Assembly (NCBI GenBank): GCA_951406725.2 | Contig: OX597820.1 | Location: forward strand, 111,104,001-111,168,000 | DNA length: 64,000 nucleotides | Direction: 5' to 3' | From: Octopus vulgaris | Lineage: Eukaryota | Shown: positions 14,846 through 53,705 of the stretch, piece by piece | Layout: every line of letters starts with the position of its first letter | How positions within the stretch are numbered: the stretch's first letter is position 1 | Made by a program: the position numbers and the translations under genes | The notes under the pieces: generated by a model | The model's input: only the letters and a program-made list of their open reading frames with translations | The model's database searches: none | Told to the model about the DNA's origin: nothing

Positions 14846-16449
<1,604 letters not shown>

Positions 16450-24452: not shown

Positions 24453-27104
24453 CCCTACTGCCCCCCCCAACCACCCCCACACACCTCCCCAATCCCTCCC
24501 CCTCAGACCTCCACGAGACCTACCACCCCTCCTACTTCTATTCCACCCACCCCTTCTCCACTTCCGTCTGTTGTTACCATTCCCTCCGATCTTCCCCTCT
24601 CTGCGGCTGAACGCTCAGTCCTTGGTAGGGGTCTGCGTTTCATCCCCCTCACTCCATCCTGTAAGGTATTCCAGACGCGAGTTGATGTCCACAGCTTTGT
24701 GCGCCGTGTCCGGTTGGGTGCGCATTACCACGACTCGCCACCCACACCCAACGAAGAGGACTGCTTCACTGGCCTGGGCCGCCGACCATCCCCGTGGACG
24801 CCTGCCCCTGGCCAGATCCTAGCAGTGGTTCTTTTCGCGGGCGCTTGTCAGCGTGCATTGGAGCGGTTCAACTTCTCCAGGCGCCAACGCCGCCTCAACA
24901 TCTCCCCGGCTGAGCTCTTGGCTCTTCGTTCCCTTCAACGGCGCGCTGACATTATCATCAAACCGGCTGACAAGGGTGGAGCTGTAGTGGTGTGGCGCGC
25001 GGACCTCTATAGGGCCGAGGCTTTCCGCCAACTCAATGACACCTCCTTCTATTCCCCTCTGCCCTCTAACCCCACACGTAGCTACCAACAGACGGTATCC
25101 TCTACTGTCCACGACCTCATCTCGTCCTCCCGTCTCCCCCGCACCGCATCCAACCTAATTGTGCGAACCCCACGTACCCCCACCATTTACTTCCTCCCCA
25201 AAATCCACAAACCCAACAACCCTGGCCGCCCCATCGTCTCCGCCTGTAACTGCCCCACGGAGCTCATCTCTAAATACCTCGACCGTGTCCTTGCCCCCCT
25301 AGTGGCATCTCTTCCCTCCCACATCCACGATACCAACCATGCTCTCCGGCTTTTCAACTCTTTCTCCTTTCCTCCCGGCTCCTCCAAAATCCTTTTTACT
25401 ATGGACATCCAAAGCCTCTATACTGTTATCCCTCACCACGAAGGACTGCAGGCCCTTCGACACTTTCTTGACCTCCGCTCTAACCCTGTACCTGACACCT
25501 CCACACTCATTCGTCTGGCCGAACTTGTCCTTACTCTGAACTGCTTCTCGTTCGCGGGCGAGTTCTACCATCAGGTCTCGGGAGTGGCCATGGGAACGCG
25601 AATGGGCCCCAACTATGTGAACCTGTTCGTTGGCTATGTTGAGGCCCAAATATTCTCTAATTTCCCTGGTCCCACTCCTGAACTATATGGTCGTTACATT
25701 GACGACATTATCGGTGCCACCTCACTCTCCCGCGAACATCTAGATTCCTTCCTCTCTTTCGTCCAATCTTTCCATCCAGCCCTCCACTTCACTTCCACTA
25801 TCTCCAACACCTCTGTCTCCTTCCTCGACATTTCGGTTAGCATTCTTCACTCCACTCTTACCACCTCCATTCCCTACAAACACACAGACTCACACTCATA
25901 CCTCAACTTCTCTTCCTCCCACCCAGAACACACCAAGCTTTCCATCCCCTATTCCCAATTCCTCCGTCTACGTAGGCTCTGTAGTGACGACCATGACTTT
26001 GAGACTCAGTCTCAACGTATGGCTCACCACTTCACCCTACGTGGATACCCCCTCACCACTATCCACACCGCCCTTGCCAGAGCACGGTCCGTGGACCGTG
26101 TATCTGCTCTCTCTCCCCGAACCCGCCCTGTAGTCTCCCGCCTCCCTTTTCCCCTCACTTACCACCCCACGACCCTACGTCTCCAACGCACCATTCTTCG
26201 AGCTTTCCGCCATCTCCAGTCCGACCCGTCCACTTCACACCTCTTCCCTAACCGACCCCTCCCCTCTTTCAAACGAGCCCACAACCTTCGAGACCTTTTG
26301 GTCCATAGCTCCTTCTCTGACCCTACCTCCCAACCCGGCTCGTTCCCCTGCTCCCGCCCACGTTGCCGCACTTGCCCTTACCTCTCCAACACCACCCGCC
26401 TCACTAGCACCCACCATCGACCCTATCCCATCATCCATTCCTTCACCTGCACCTCCAGCAATATTATCTATTGCATCTCTTGCTCTCTCTGCAATTCCTT
26501 GTACATCGGACAAACGGGACGCCGCTTGGCTGACCGGTTCGCGGAACACCTTCGTGACATCCACCTTGCGAACGACACACCGGTCTCACGCCATTTCCTC
26601 TCCACCGGTCACTCCTTGCAACACCTATCTGTGTTCGGTTTGTCCTTACACAGAGGCCATCCGGATTCCCGTTTGCGCCGTGAACAGGAATTAATCTTCT
26701 CTCTTCGCTCTTATACGCCATTTGGTCTCAACTCTCCCCCCTCTTCACCTATCCCTTCCCCCGACCCCTACTTCTTCAGTCCTTCATCCTTTCACCCCTA
26801 CTCCCCTTCCCTTCTTCCCTCTTTCTCCCTCCCTCCTTCCCTCTTCCCCTTCCCTCTGCTCCCTCACTCCCTCACTCCCCTTCTCTCTCCCCCTCTCCCT
26901 CTTTCCTCCTTCCTCCCCCCTCCTCCCCTTCCTTCTCCCCCTCCTCTCTCTCTCCCCCATCCTCTCCTCTTCCACCCTCTCCTCCCCCTCTTCTTCCCCT
27001 CCCCTTCTCTCCCCCCTCTTCTCCCCCTCCCCCTCTTCTCCTCACTACACCACACGACTTTACACATCACATCATATATGATGTGCCATACTAATACGTA
27101 CTAA
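24453..27104 (+). CDS. PLE reverse transcriptase plus GIY-YIG endonuclease (open frame; no native start in view)
   Basis: Frame is open from 24453 and includes LSAAERSVLGRGLRFIP upstream of the track's GTG start at 24699. Motifs: IIIKPADKG, LPKIHK..GRPIVS, DIQSLYT, GVAMG, RYIDD, FLDI, SIPYSQFLRLRRLCS, Cys linker CSRPRCRTC, IIYCISCSLC..YIGQT, EH, GLN. Confidence 0.88.
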   Translation, partial: PYCPPQPPPHTSPIPPPQTSTRPTTPPTSIPPTPSPLPSVVTIPSDLPLSAAERSVLGRGLRFIPLTPSCKVFQTRVDVHSFVRRVRLGAHYHDSPPTPNEEDCFTGLGRRPSPWTPAPGQILAVVLFAGACQRALERFNFSRRQRRLNISPAELLALRSLQRRADIIIKPADKGGAVVVWRADLYRAEAFRQLNDTSFYSPLPSNPTRSYQQTVSSTVHDLISSSRLPRTASNLIVRTPRTPTIYFLPKIHKPNNPGRPIVSACNCPTELISKYLDRVLAPLVASLPSHIHDTNHALRLFNSFSFPPGSSKILFTMDIQSLYTVIPHHEGLQALRHFLDLRSNPVPDTSTLIRLAELVLTLNCFSFAGEFYHQVSGVAMGTRMGPNYVNLFVGYVEAQIFSNFPGPTPELYGRYIDDIIGATSLSREHLDSFLSFVQSFHPALHFTSTISNTSVSFLDISVSILHSTLTTSIPYKHTDSHSYLNFSSSHPEHTKLSIPYSQFLRLRRLCSDDHDFETQSQRMAHHFTLRGYPLTTIHTALARARSVDRVSALSPRTRPVVSRLPFPLTYHPTTLRLQRTILRAFRHLQSDPSTSHLFPNRPLPSFKRAHNLRDLLVHSSFSDPTSQPGSFPCSRPRCRTCPYLSNTTRLTSTHHRPYPIIHSFTCTSSNIIYCISCSLCNSLYIGQTGRRLADRFAEHLRDIHLANDTPVSRHFLSTGHSLQHLSVFGLSLHRGHPDSRLRREQELIFSLRSYTPFGLNSPPSSPIPSPDPYFFSPSSFHPYSPSLLPSFSLPPSLFPFPLLPHSLTPLLSPPLPLSSFLPPPPLPSPPPLSLPHPLLFHPLLPLFFPSPSLPPLLPLPLFSSLHHTTLHITSYMMCHTNTY

Positions 27105-27710: not shown

Positions 27711-27804
<94 letters not shown>

Positions 27805-29462: not shown

Positions 29463-31930
29463 TCATAGATCAAGCCTTTCCGGAGCTTTCCAAATCCTTT
29501 GTGATCGACACAGCTGAGGGGATTCTTCTTTTTGTTCTTGACGGTTATCTCTTGGAGGAGGGGAAATTTCAGTTGGTTCTCTGTCTGGCTGTTGAGCGAC
29601 AAATGTTTGGGTTAATCTTCCCTGGTGATGCCAATTGTTTTGTGGATACTGTGGTTTCGTGACCATCTTGATAATGAACGTGAGTGTATTGGAAGTTGGC
29701 TTCGATTAAATCAACTTGGTACACGATAGGGTCATACTTGTTAGTGTGATTGTTCCTTTGAACAAGCCAGGTTCTGGGTTAAGAAGCCATGTTGGCATAG
29801 ATGTTCCTGTTACTGAACGTCTTTGATAGTTAAAAAGACGTTCATGAGGAGTGGTGTTAGTGGACGTACAAAGTAGAGATCTGATTGAATGCAACGCATC
29901 TGGAAGAACTGTTTCACATGAAGATACTGGAAGGGCGCGGGTTTTCAAAGAGAGTAGTACTGACTTCCAAATAATACCATTATATATTTCTACTTGGTTG
30001 TTCCAAGTGGGATTGTATGGTGTCATCCTATTCATTGCAATGTCCTTACTGAGGAGCCATTCTCTCAGTCTTGTGGACATAAAGGCAGTTCCACGATCTG
30101 AATGTACATAACTGGGCATACCAAAAACTGAGAACAAATCTGTAAGACACTTTATTACAGTCTGAGCTGTGTCAGATACTGGATATCCAAACGGAAACCG
30201 AGAGTATTCGTCATCTATTGTTAGGAGATAAGAATGCTTCGTGGAAGAAATTGGACCTTTGAAATCGATAGAAGTTCGCTTGAAGGGCTGCATGGCCTTA
30301 ATTAAGTTAACTGAGTCTGGTTTATAATATTGTGGTTTCACTTCTTGACATGTAGAACAATGCCTACATATTTGTTTCACGTTCTCTAACGAATATGGAA
30401 GATTTCTACTGAGGACGAAATGATGAAGGCGTACTACACCAGGATGGCACAGTGCTGCATGTAACTCATAAAGTGAATTTGAACTAATTTCTGAACAGCG
30501 TACCCTTGTGAATGCATCCGGAGCGACGTTGCTGGATCATGGGCACTAATGAATATCATATGAGTATGGAGATAATGCAATGCGCCATCTCATAATGTTA
30601 TCATTTTTAATTTTGCTCGTCGCTTTATAATTATACATGAATGTAACAGAACGTTGATCAGTAATTAATGTAAAGTGTCTACCTAGAAGAAGGTGTCTCC
30701 AATAATGAAATGATTCGATAATTGCTTGGGTTTCCTTTTCAACTGAGGAGTGGTACTGTTCGCTACCTTGCAGCGTGCGAGAATGGAATGCGATTGGTCT
30801 TCCATCTGAATTTAGTGTCGCAGATATAACAAAATCCGAAGCATTCGTCTCAACAGTAAACGGAATGTTCTCATCTATTACTTGAATGGCAGCATTGGCT
30901 AGTTCTACCTTTAATGACTCAAAGGCTTTCACTTGTTGGCTGTTGAGAGGGAATTTTAATACGTTATTTAGAGGATATATTTTGTCCGAAAATTTGGAGA
31001 TCCACTTAGCATAATAAGAAAACATACCGACTATACGTTTTAATGATTTCTGGTCAGTTGGTGTAGAAAGATTTAGGAGTGGAGCAAGCCTTTCTGGGTC
31101 AGGGCTGAGGGTATTGTGTGAGATACGGTATCCAAGAAAGTCAAGAGTTGTTGAGTAAACGCGTTTGTCTTCATTTATGGTAAGCCCTTCACTTTTTGCT
31201 ACCATTTCAAATTTTACTAAATTTTTATCGTGGTCATTTTGATCTTTCCCACATATTGTTAAATTGTCTATGAATGGGAGCGTATCTCGCAGCTTGTATT
31301 TACTCTCGAAGTTTCACATGATAGTACTTCGGATTATTCAGTTTCACATGATAGTATTTCGGATTATTCAGAGTTAGTGAAACAGTGCAGTATCCCTTGG
31401 ATTCTGCAGAAAGAGATGCAGAAGCCATACCAATGACCTTCTTCAATTAGACCGTCTTGATGTTGTGTGTTCACTAGCTTCTCACTGATGAAGCTCTTCT
31501 CAGTGCTACTACTATCAACTAATGCTTCGGCTTTATAGCTATTGTTCAGTATAACCACGGAGGTTACTCGGAAGGGTGAACCTGCTGATGCTGATACTGC
31601 CAATGGCAAACCATATTTACCATTATCCTGTGTTAGAGTTGCTGCGTTGTTCCTACATAGTTTTCCAAAATGCCCTATTTTTTGGCATTTGTGACAGACT
31701 GCTTTCTAGGCAGGGTAGTGAGTGTGCAGGTGTCTGGAATAGCTACAAAACCAACATTGAGAGGGGTCTCCTTTTTGGGTCGCAGCAGAGTGTTTTCCTT
31801 CCTACTTTCCTTCCTACAATCTTGAAGTTGGCACCCTCAGAGTTTAGAAAGACACTGGAACTTCGTTGCGCCACATTTAGTGAATGTGCTTGATCATAAT
31901 CTGTACTGAGGTTGGCACTTTTGTTTTCTA
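29463..31930 (-). pseudogene. Decayed Ty3/Gypsy gag-pol (knuckle, protease, partial RT, RNase H, integrase)
   Basis: CHKCQKIGHFGKLC knuckle near 31655-31700; ALVDSSS protease; FIDN and LDFLGY RT; ETNASD..YSSVEKE-like and TDQ RNase H; IDFKGP, HSDRGTAF integrase. Order PR-RT-RH-INT; frameshifted with RT N-terminus deleted near 31310; 5' end cut by a SINE. Confidence 0.9.
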
Positions 31931-52253: not shown

Positions 52254-52500
52254 ACACACATATATATATATATATATAGAATCTGAGGGGTTTAGTTCCC
52301 TGATAATCTGAACTAATAGGTACGCTGCGTAAGTGCTATAATTGGTCAACCGTTAGGTTTCAAGTTCACAGCTGAGGCTGGAACTAGGGATCCGTAGTAG
52401 GCTTCCGAGTCAGCATGTATATATTAAAGGATAATGGACAACAAAACCAAGGTAGAACGAGTATCTCAGGCCATTTAGAATATATATATATATATATATA

Positions 52501-53670
52501 TATATCAAATGTGAGGATAAAATTCTTTTCGAAAAAAAAATATTTTCTCGAAAAAAATTTTATCAATGGCCAACATATTAAAAAATACCTTTAACGGTTA
52601 AATTTATAAACAATTCATAAATGAGGGCAAAGGAAAAAAATTCTAATGCCAAATATGCCGAAAAATTGGACATATTGTCCATTAACCATATAATTTTTTC
52701 ACAATACGCACGCTACTCGAAAAAAGGTCGACAGAAATTCCTAAAAAATTCCATTATTACCATATCGGACCGATTTCAGAGTTAGCTACTAAGAGCCCTC
52801 TCTTCGTCAGTGATACATGTGGCAAAATAGATAAATGAGATACTTACTCATACCCATGGAAGAAGCAAATACTTCATGGGGTACTTAGTTGTGCCCATGA
52901 CTTACTATTTGCTTCTTCCATGGGTATGAGTAAGTATCTCATTTATTTCTTTTGCCACATGTATCACTGACGAAGAGAGGGCTCTTAGTCGCTAACTCTG
53001 AAAATTGGTCCGATATGGTAATAATGGAATTTTTTAGAAATTTCTGTCGACCTTTTTTCGAGTAGCGTGCGTATTGTGAAAAAATTATATGGTTAATGGA
53101 CAATATGTCCAATTTTTCGGCATATTTGGCATTAGAATTTTTTCCTTTGCCCTCATTTATGAATTGTTTATAAATTTAACCGTTAAAGGTATTTTTTAAT
53201 ATGCTGGCCATTGATAAAAATTTTTTCGAGAAAATATATATTTTTCGAAAAGAATTTTATCCTCACATTTGATATAAATTTAAGCGTTCACTTCCGAACT
53301 AACTAACTCACTCTGTGAGAGCCTCAGTTCAAATCGCACGTGCCTCGAATGGGCTGGAGTATTTCTATTTTGGATGTATTTGGGGTACTTAGTTGTGCCC
53401 ATGACTTAGTATTTGCTTCTTCCATGGGTATGAGTAAGTATCTCATTTATTTCTTTTGCCACATGTATCACTGACGAAGAGAGGGCTCTTAGTAGCTAAC
53501 TCTGAAATCGGTCCGATATGGTAATAATGGAATTTTTTAGAAATTTCTGTCGACCTTTTTTCGAGTAGCGTGCGTATTGTGAAAAAATTATATGGTTAAT
53601 GGACAATATGTCCAATTTTTCGGCATATTTGGCATTAGAATTTTTTTCCTTTGCCCTCATTTATGAATTG

Positions 53671-53672
<2 letters not shown>
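52501..53672 (+). mobile_element. ORF-less hammerhead element: ~775-bp palindrome plus 504-bp tandem (retrozyme-like)
   Basis: 52501-52871 is the reverse complement of 52906-53276; unit repeats from 52877 to 53381; hammerheads at 52758-52815 (-), 52962-53020 (+), 53466-53523 (+); (TA)n on both sides. Confidence 0.88.
53466..53523 (+). ncRNA. Type I hammerhead ribozyme motif
   Basis: tatca-CTGACGA-AGAG...CTCT-GAA-ATCGG-T-CCGAT-A-tggta; stems I, II and III all pair; predicted cleavage after AUA at 53518. Confidence 0.8.

Positions 53673-53700
<28 letters not shown>

Positions 53701-53705
<5 letters not shown>

What the first reader, a model, noticed from the sequence alone, without database searches (positions are those of the whole stretch)
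52501..53672. ORF-less 504-nt hammerhead-delimited unit in tandem plus inverted arrangement (retrozyme-like)
Seen: two sense hammerheads 504 bp apart (cores at 52967 and 53471) and a third antisense copy within a near-perfect ~775-bp palindrome; no ORF; few differences between copies; (TA)n flanks. The first sense copy has a damaged stem III. Established: animal non-LTR retrozymes are tandem non-coding units with type I hammerheads that release monomers able to circularise, and PLE insertions often carry an inverted 5' terminal segment. Inference: a young non-autonomous RNA replicon mobilised by PLE RT; read-through would yield both a ~500-nt monomer or circle and a ~370-bp dsRNA.
Basis: partly seen in the sequence, partly recalled or inferred. 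Interest (0 to 1): 0.72.

Follow-up and report, generated by a model that had tools for sequence, protein, structure and literature searches.

The report
Two-armed Penelope-pasted hammerhead retrozyme copy
This is one of thousands of scattered copies of a protein-less 500-base repeat that carries a conserved hammerhead-shaped, likely self-cutting RNA motif and sits in TA microsatellites as two back-to-back arms ending at two fixed sites, the same footprint that the genome's coding Penelope retrotransposons leave, so their enzyme likely pastes it; the kind (retrozyme) is known, and self-cutting and RNA circles remain untested.

Summary
Observation confirmed: three type I hammerhead cores (52967+, 53471+, 52810-), a 776-bp palindrome, no ORF, (TA)n flanks. 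The 504-bp unit belongs to a dispersed family (3,293 exact hits of one 19-mer) with subfamilies 75-97% alike. Compensatory changes in all three ribozyme helices point to selection on the fold. Copies are circularly permuted partial tandems, truncated at variable 5' points, and end at two fixed sites 104 nt apart. Where both ends of a head-to-head insertion could be classed, one arm ended at each site in 57 of 57; coding Penelope-like elements (PLEs) here show the same one-sided tail in 4 of 4 readable cases. The unit was not found as the terminal repeat of a coding PLE, and no partner sharing its sequence was found. Verdict: a non-autonomous PLE of the animal non-LTR retrozyme kind. This copy is probably a dead end: its first ribozyme is mutated and lies inside the hairpin. 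Cleavage, expression and circles are untested. The kind is published, and this scan has noted it many times before, also in this genome.

The parts
52480..52505 (.). Left (TA)n run, the insertion target
   Evidence: TRF; 96 of 115 arm ends at sites A or B are followed by a TA run
52501..52880 (-). Inverted arm: unit positions 18-400, outer end at fixed site B (with tail); 3-nt deletion near the junction
52758..52815 (-). Hammerhead copy 3, intact core; predicted cleavage after 52763 on the minus strand
   Evidence: cleavage site from the established NUH rule, not assayed
52877..52880 (.). 4-nt microhomology joining the two arms head to head; 13-nt loop follows at 52881-52893
   Evidence: read from the sequence
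52877..53380 (+). Sense arm, one full 504-bp unit
52962..53020 (+). Hammerhead copy 1, mutated (extra A at GAAA, C>T in stem III, A>C at 52990 in the stem II extension); predicted cleavage after 53015
53016..53518 (+). Predicted 503-nt monomer between the two sense cleavage sites; strongly self-paired
   Evidence: MFE -139.9 kcal/mol, z -6.2, 0 of 100 shuffles as stable; release not tested
53173..53276 (+). 104-nt 'tail' between fixed 3' end site A (unit ~296) and site B (unit ~400); both sites end in a TATA-like word
53289..53342 (+). Candidate internal promoter words (CACTTCC Ets-like, GTTCRAATC B-box-like, CACGTG E-box); labels recalled, function untested
   Evidence: present in most of 38 aligned rows, but the region is no better conserved than the rest of the unit; no tRNA called
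53381..53676 (+). Sense arm, partial second unit (1-296), outer end at fixed site A (no tail)
53466..53523 (+). Hammerhead copy 2, intact type I: 5-bp stem I, 4+4-bp stem II with internal loop, 3-bp stem III with near-palindromic loop, AUA site ending at 53518
53673..53701 (.). Right (TA)n run
   Evidence: TRF

Best explanation
The element is one insertion of a ~500-nt non-coding repeat family with a covarying type I hammerhead, built as two head-to-head arms that end at two fixed unit sites in (TA)n, and it was most likely written by a Penelope-like (PLE) reverse transcriptase-endonuclease acting in trans on a tandem or circular RNA of the unit. Steps: (1) inferred: a tandem source copy is transcribed; (2) predicted, untested: the hammerheads cut the transcript into ~500-nt monomers, which may be circularised as in coral, mussel and axolotl retrozymes; (3) inferred from the footprint and from in vitro work on an anole PLE: a PLE protein nicks both strands of a (TA)n run and starts reverse transcription from both 3' ends, one at site A (unit ~296) and one at site B (unit ~400); (4) shown: arms run through the hammerhead site and the unit boundary, so the template was more than one linear cleaved monomer (circle, uncut multimer, or template jumps); (5) shown: arms stop at variable points and are joined head to head, here by a 4-nt microhomology. 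The copy in the window is likely a dead end for monomer release.
For: Family size: 258, 964, 960 and 3,293 exact hits for four motifs along the unit, reversed-pattern controls 0-2. Covariation: 7 of 16 pairs change on both sides, six of them in 13-25 of 59 distinct rows, in all three helices. Fixed ends: of 133 arm ends in the 77-locus sample, 56 fall at A, 59 at B, 18 elsewhere; head-to-head pairs are A+B in 39 of 39 classifiable cases (11 more had an unclassified end) and in 18 of 18 in a second set of 49 loci (8 more unclassified); never A+A or B+B. Coding RT+GIY-YIG PLEs of this genome end in (TA)n with a 37-47-nt tail, on one arm only in 4 of 4 readable inverted insertions (8 examined). 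66 of 115 arms read through the cleavage site, 33 cross the unit origin, 22 exceed 480 nt; one insertion holds about five units. Opposite arms of one insertion share a rare variant in 51 of 74 pairs, against 30 of 96 nearest neighbours from other insertions (pairs not independent). Frangieh et al. (PMC11167929, parts 1-3 of 4 read) show a PLE protein cutting and extending both strands at AT-rich DNA and starting at two internal RNA sites that define the tail; Craig et al. (PMC8557442, passages) describe partial tandems, inverted 5'-truncated copies and a tail often at one end only.
Against: No autonomous PLE sharing sequence with the unit was found in 138 coding PLE loci from about six families, 19 longer loci or ten terminal segments, so the partner is inferred from the footprint only. 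The tail (104 nt) is longer than the 30-40 nt described for PLEs and the 37-47 nt seen here. In isolation the intact hammerhead's lowest-energy fold pairs the core with stem III instead of the active fold (z -1.3); eight of nine Xenopus retrozyme dimers did not cleave in vitro (preprint 10.64898/2026.07.22.740005), and ribozyme cleavage was not needed for insertion by the anole PLE in vitro (PMC11167929). The three arms in the window share no rare variant. The five-unit insertion mixes units with and without a 28-nt deletion, which a single monomer circle cannot give.
Confidence: 0.82

Rival explanations
1. The unit is the terminal repeat (pLTR) of a coding PLE that I did not see, and the copies are its 5'-truncated remains.
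For: Hammerhead 160 nt upstream of the 3' end, tail and inversions are all pLTR features; most PLE insertions are 5'-truncated (PMC8557442). Only part of the genome's PLE diversity was sampled (searches score 150 candidates each).
Against: Upstream of the hammerhead the copies continue into the previous unit, never into an ORF: 33 of 115 arms cross the unit origin. PLE coding hits near unit copies occur at 8 places among 191 partly overlapping loci; the five inspected are set off by (TA)n and the other three lie more than 1 kb away. 25 single-orientation loci share no common upstream sequence.
Confidence: 0.07
2. Non-autonomous mini-PLE copied from uncut linear tandem transcripts; the hammerhead is a conserved protein-assisted or regulatory element and no circle is involved.
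For: Overlaps with the best explanation except for the template. The anole PLE uses unprocessed RNA (PMC11167929). Most arms are under 1.5 units; heterogeneous units in one array.
Against: A strongly self-paired monomer and a canonical, covarying ribozyme match retrozymes whose circles were shown (PMC7229834). Arm 5' ends are enriched just downstream of the cleavage site (15 of 85 in bin 140-159 against 3 of 139 in the two bins upstream; Fisher p 6e-5, post hoc), a hint that some templates were cut, although none ends exactly at the site and a stall at stem I would look the same.
Confidence: 0.4
3. DNA-level origin: a foldback/MITE-like or satellite repeat spread by DNA transposition or recombination, the hammerhead being incidental.
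For: Long inverted repeat flanked by TA resembles a foldback element; tandem units resemble a satellite.
Against: The two ends are different unit positions, not terminal inverted repeats; inner junctions vary from locus to locus; many copies are single 5'-truncated arms; compensatory changes keep the RNA structure.
Confidence: 0.03
4. The palindrome is an assembly artefact.
For: Inverted repeats next to microsatellites are hard to assemble; no long read over this locus was seen.
Against: Arms differ at 13 places; the same layout recurs at 50 of 77 loci with different junctions.
Confidence: 0.02

Closest known systems
Metazoan non-LTR retrozymes (Cervera and de la Pena 2020, PMC7229834, parts 2-4 of 6 read; Li, Clavereau and Pollet 2026, bioRxiv 10.64898/2026.07.22.740005, parts 1-3 of 5 read)
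   Same: Non-coding tandem unit, one type I hammerhead per unit, low GC (33.5%), strongly self-paired monomer, coexists with autonomous PLEs; proposed to be moved by PLEs.
   Different: 504 nt is above the 150-450 bp of the 2020 paper but inside the 51-972 bp range of the preprint. Mostly dispersed partial tandems rather than long arrays. No sequence link to a PLE pLTR was found, whereas the preprint found one for 21 of 57 Xenopus families' matches. The head-to-head A+B insertion form is not described in the parts I read. Circles and cleavage are not shown here.
Endonuclease-bearing Penelope-like elements (Craig et al. 2021, PMC8557442; Frangieh et al. 2024, PMC11167929; Cervera and de la Pena 2014, PMC4209133, part 1 of 4 read)
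   Same: Partial tandems, 5' truncation, inverted 5' copy, tail at one end, microsatellite target, hammerhead shortly before the 3' end.
   Different: No RT-GIY-YIG ORF; tail 104 nt rather than 30-47; a full-size canonical hammerhead rather than the minimal or variant motifs seen in this genome's coding PLEs.
Non-autonomous Chlamys PLEs such as MRC1 (passage in PMC8557442)
   Same: Non-coding PLE derivatives that form pLTRs and multicopy head-to-tail insertions.
   Different: Those generally resemble their autonomous family at the 3' end and their clade lacks canonical hammerheads; this one has a hammerhead and no identified parent.

Membership tests
Metazoan non-LTR retrozyme | Type I hammerhead in each unit | tested here: met
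   Core motif; 53 of 74 rows covering it have an intact core; covariation. No Rfam gathering-score hit.
Metazoan non-LTR retrozyme | Head-to-tail tandem units, two consecutive hammerheads | tested here: met
   Window sense arm has two, the first mutated; arrays of up to about four consecutive units; only 2 of 77 sampled loci have two intact ones in one arm.
Metazoan non-LTR retrozyme | No coding capacity, no LTR/PBS/PPT layout | tested here: met
   Longest ATG frame 41 codons; no PLE protein match at E<0.2; ends are permuted unit positions.
Metazoan non-LTR retrozyme | Highly self-paired monomer | tested here: met
   z -6.2; 66% paired as a circle.
Metazoan non-LTR retrozyme | Self-cleavage of the transcript | not testable with these tools
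   Only indirect: covariation and a surplus of 5' ends just past the site.
Metazoan non-LTR retrozyme | Monomeric linear and circular RNA in vivo | not testable with these tools
   Only contigs of runs not on record as RNA were offered.
Autonomous Penelope-like element | ORF with RT and GIY-YIG endonuclease between pLTRs | tested here: not met
PLE-mobilised (non-autonomous) element | Two fixed 3' ends with a tail on one side, inverted 5'-truncated copy, partial tandems, microsatellite target | tested here: met
   same footprint in coding PLEs of the genome
PLE-mobilised (non-autonomous) element | Sequence shared with the ends of an autonomous partner | tested here: inconclusive
   None found in about six sampled families; other clades and older families not sampled.
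Foldback/MITE DNA transposon | Matching terminal inverted repeats at both ends | tested here: not met
   Ends are at different unit sites (A and B); junctions vary.

The most novel reading that the evidence does not exclude
Each two-armed insertion was written from a single RNA molecule, a ribozyme-made circle, by an asymmetric PLE protein dimer in which one DNA strand always primes at site A and the other always at site B. That would be genomic evidence for the unproven circle-to-DNA step of retrozymes and an in vivo rule (57 of 57 pairs) that the in vitro anole PLE assay did not show, since it found no difference in start site between strands.
Probability: 0.35. Interest if true: 0.65.

Novelty: new member of a known kind. 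Interest (0 to 1): 0.42.

Why it matters
The link between animal retrozymes and PLEs is so far argued from co-occurrence and pLTR similarity. Here it is read from the insertion footprint in thousands of copies, and a 500-nt RNA with two defined start sites and a TA target is a compact substrate for testing how a PLE enzyme makes its tandem and inverted copies and whether a circle is the template. For a specialist this is a useful confirmation and a handy test system rather than a surprise; the scan has already recorded the same anatomy in this and other genomes.

Tried and rejected
Rfam scan of the window: no family at gathering score. RNA evidence: no RNA holder listed; contigs of three runs guessed to be RNA and one unlabelled run cover the unit in short pieces, which cannot show expression, strand, ends or circles and is not used as evidence. 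Partner search: unit profile against 138 coding PLE loci hit only 3, all separate insertions, two of them the loci the queries came from; 19 longer PLE loci gave one weak AT-rich hit (E 0.006); local alignment of ten PLE terminal segments scored no better than shuffles. Coding remnant in the unit: none. tRNA gene in the element: none. The surplus of arm 5' ends at unit position 1 (12 of 46) is taken as an artefact of the profile's boundary. A strict dimer-circle template for the five-unit array was considered and rejected: units 2 and 4 do not share the variants that unit 2 shares with the inverted unit. Literature: five searches listed no paper on this family; one octopus repeat-annotation paper (PMC13282606, term search only) has no 'hammerhead', 'ribozyme' or 'retrozyme' in its main text. 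Supplements, subscription papers and repeat libraries (Repbase, Dfam) were not seen and may hold the unit under another name. Host-gene context of the locus was not examined.

Full report
Observation. Three hammerhead cores lie at 52967 (+), 53471 (+) and 52810 (-), and the sense cores are 504 bp apart. The stretch 52501-53276 is a 776-bp palindrome whose arms differ by 10 substitutions and 3 indels; the two sense copies differ by 4 substitutions and 2 indels over about 296 bp. The element sits between two (TA)n runs and has no coding frame. Taking the unit as 52877-53380, the insertion is an inverted arm (unit 18-400) joined by a 4-nt microhomology to a sense arm (unit 1-504, then 1-296). The first sense hammerhead carries three changes that the other two copies lack: an extra A at GAAA, a C>T in stem III and an A>C in the stem II extension. 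Rfam gave no match at gathering score.

A large dispersed family. The window lies in a 2.8-Gb genome (G000). A search with the unit gave 127 matches from 40 of 2,762 candidates scored. Exact motif counts were 258 for the core of this subfamily, 964 for stem III, 960 just past the cleavage site and 3,293 for a 19-mer near the 3' end, with reversed-pattern controls of 0-2. The first 100 matches, all on contig C1, fall in 77 distinct loci, which I used as a sample not selected for the ribozyme or for length. Subfamilies range from about 97% down to 72-80% identity with the window's unit, with periods of about 444-508 bp.

The ribozyme is conserved as a structure. I aligned 63 of the 66 sample rows that span the hammerhead (three damaged rows left out) plus the two window sense copies. 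On a 16-pair type I structure, 97.3% of 936 cells pair, against 89.6% in shuffles and at most 48% when partners are slid; 7 pairs change on both sides, six of them in 13-25 of 59 distinct rows, in stems I, II and III. These are roughly six events between a few subfamilies, not dozens, and the structure was drawn from these sequences; but each switch (A-U to G-C, C-G to U-A) keeps the pair while the core stays fixed except at the free position 7. 53 of 74 rows keep an intact core. The 503-nt monomer between cleavage sites folds far better than shuffles (z -6.2). Against efficient cleavage as a monomer, the isolated motif's best fold pairs the core with stem III.

The insertion footprint is that of a Penelope-like element. 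Of 133 arm ends in the sample, 56 lie at site A (unit ~296), 59 at site B (unit ~400) and 18 elsewhere; 96 of the 115 A or B ends are followed by a TA run. Fifty of 77 loci are head-to-head pairs. Where both ends could be classed, all 39 were A+B; a second set of 49 loci, chosen by score or by ribozyme motif, gave 18 of 18; A+A and B+B were never seen, and 19 pairs had an unclassified end. The window's copy follows the rule. The genome holds several young coding PLE families with RT and GIY-YIG domains, one copy in the window itself at 24453-27104. They also end in (TA)n with an optional 37-47-nt tail, which is on one arm only in 4 of 4 readable inverted insertions out of 8 examined. Craig et al. 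(PMC8557442, passages) describe this layout for PLEs, and Frangieh et al. (PMC11167929, parts 1-3 of 4) show that a PLE protein cuts and extends both strands of AT-rich DNA and starts at two internal RNA sites that bound the tail.

Not a terminal repeat, partner not found. Upstream of the hammerhead the copies run into the previous unit or stop. PLE coding hits lie near unit copies at 8 places among 191 partly overlapping loci; the five inspected are set off by TA runs and three lie over 1 kb away. The unit profile found no homology at the ends of 138 coding PLE loci apart from 3 neighbouring insertions, nor in 19 longer loci or ten terminal segments. The partner is therefore inferred from the footprint, and unsampled PLE families remain possible.

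Template. 66 of 115 arms read through the cleavage site, 33 cross the unit origin and 22 exceed 480 nt; one insertion has about five units. A single cut linear monomer cannot give this; a circle, an uncut multimer or template jumping can. Opposite arms of one insertion share rare variants more often (51 of 74 pairs; 114 in 14,925 columns) than nearest neighbours from other insertions (30 of 96; 75 in 16,004), which favours one source for both arms; the pairs are not independent, the window's own arms share none, and 8 of 73 opposite-arm pairs are no closer than a quarter of unrelated copies. The five-unit array mixes units with and without a 28-nt deletion, so it did not come from one monomer circle. 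Arm 5' ends are more frequent just past the cleavage site (15 of 85) than just before it (3 of 139; p 6e-5, chosen after seeing the data); seven lie within about 3-5 nt of the site over both sets, none exactly at it, and a polymerase stall at stem I or a nearby palindrome would look alike. I count this as a hint only.

This copy. Read-through on either strand would fold the ~380-bp hairpin over hammerhead 1 (inference), which is also mutated, and the candidate promoter words lie downstream of it. So a monomer or circle from this locus is unlikely; long dsRNA on read-through is possible but untested. Only 2 of 77 loci have two intact hammerheads in one arm, so few copies could be sources.

Comparison and verdict. 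It works like, and by every sequence feature tested belongs with, the animal non-LTR retrozymes (PMC7229834); cleavage and circles, the experimental features of that family, could not be tested. A 2026 preprint (10.64898/2026.07.22.740005) already argues that such elements are non-autonomous PLE sequences. What the copies add is the footprint: a strict A+B pairing and a 104-nt tail. Earlier notes of this scan report the same anatomy for 490- and 492-nt units in this genome, possibly subfamilies of this family (not checked), and for other units and genomes; I reached the A+B rule before reading them, and they are not independent support. Those notes call the host a cephalopod; I did not test that. 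New member of a known kind; interest 0.42.

Noticed in passing
window 24453-27104 (+), 3' end near 27712: Coding PLE (RT + GIY-YIG, 883 stop-free codons) of a very young family: 150 scored copies 99% identical over 139 aa, 17,525 candidates. Its 3' region has a variant minimal hammerhead-like motif about 110 nt before the TA junction.
   Followed up: partly
L096-L125 (811-850-aa family), L253/L254 (753-782-aa family), L262/L290 (635-aa family), 3' UTRs: Hammerhead-like motifs with changed core pair 3-8 (U3-A8 in two families, A3-U8 in one) and a palindromic CCGG stem III, 65-140 nt before the 3' end; read by eye. U3-A8 is described in PMC4209133; A3-U8 not checked in print.
   Followed up: partly
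L093:6504-9072 (G000:C55): Largest insertion seen: about 1.3 inverted plus 3.9 sense units; units 1 and 3 of the sense arm share a 28-nt deletion that unit 2 and the inverted unit lack.
   Followed up: partly
window 53289-53342 and aligned rows: Ets-like, B-box-like and E-box words between site B and the hammerhead, kept in most subfamilies; possible internal promoter, untested.
   Followed up: partly
window 29706-31313 (-): Broken LTR-retrotransposon pol pieces (RT, RNase H, integrase).
   Followed up: no
window 15206-16141 (+): Frame with a zf-RVT match (LINE-type C-terminal fragment) next to trinucleotide runs.
   Followed up: no
window 35235 (-) and 11485 (+): Two further CTGANGA...GAAA motifs with a possible stem II, unrelated to the unit; may be other ribozyme repeats or chance.
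   Followed up: no
window 52280-52320 and 52375-52400: Short elements left of the insertion that read like antisense hammerhead-core words (two CTGA-containing stretches around short hairpins); not analysed.
   Followed up: no
L287 (G000:C30): A GIY-YIG match unlike the PLE endonucleases, probably a host structure-specific nuclease exon (label recalled).
   Followed up: no
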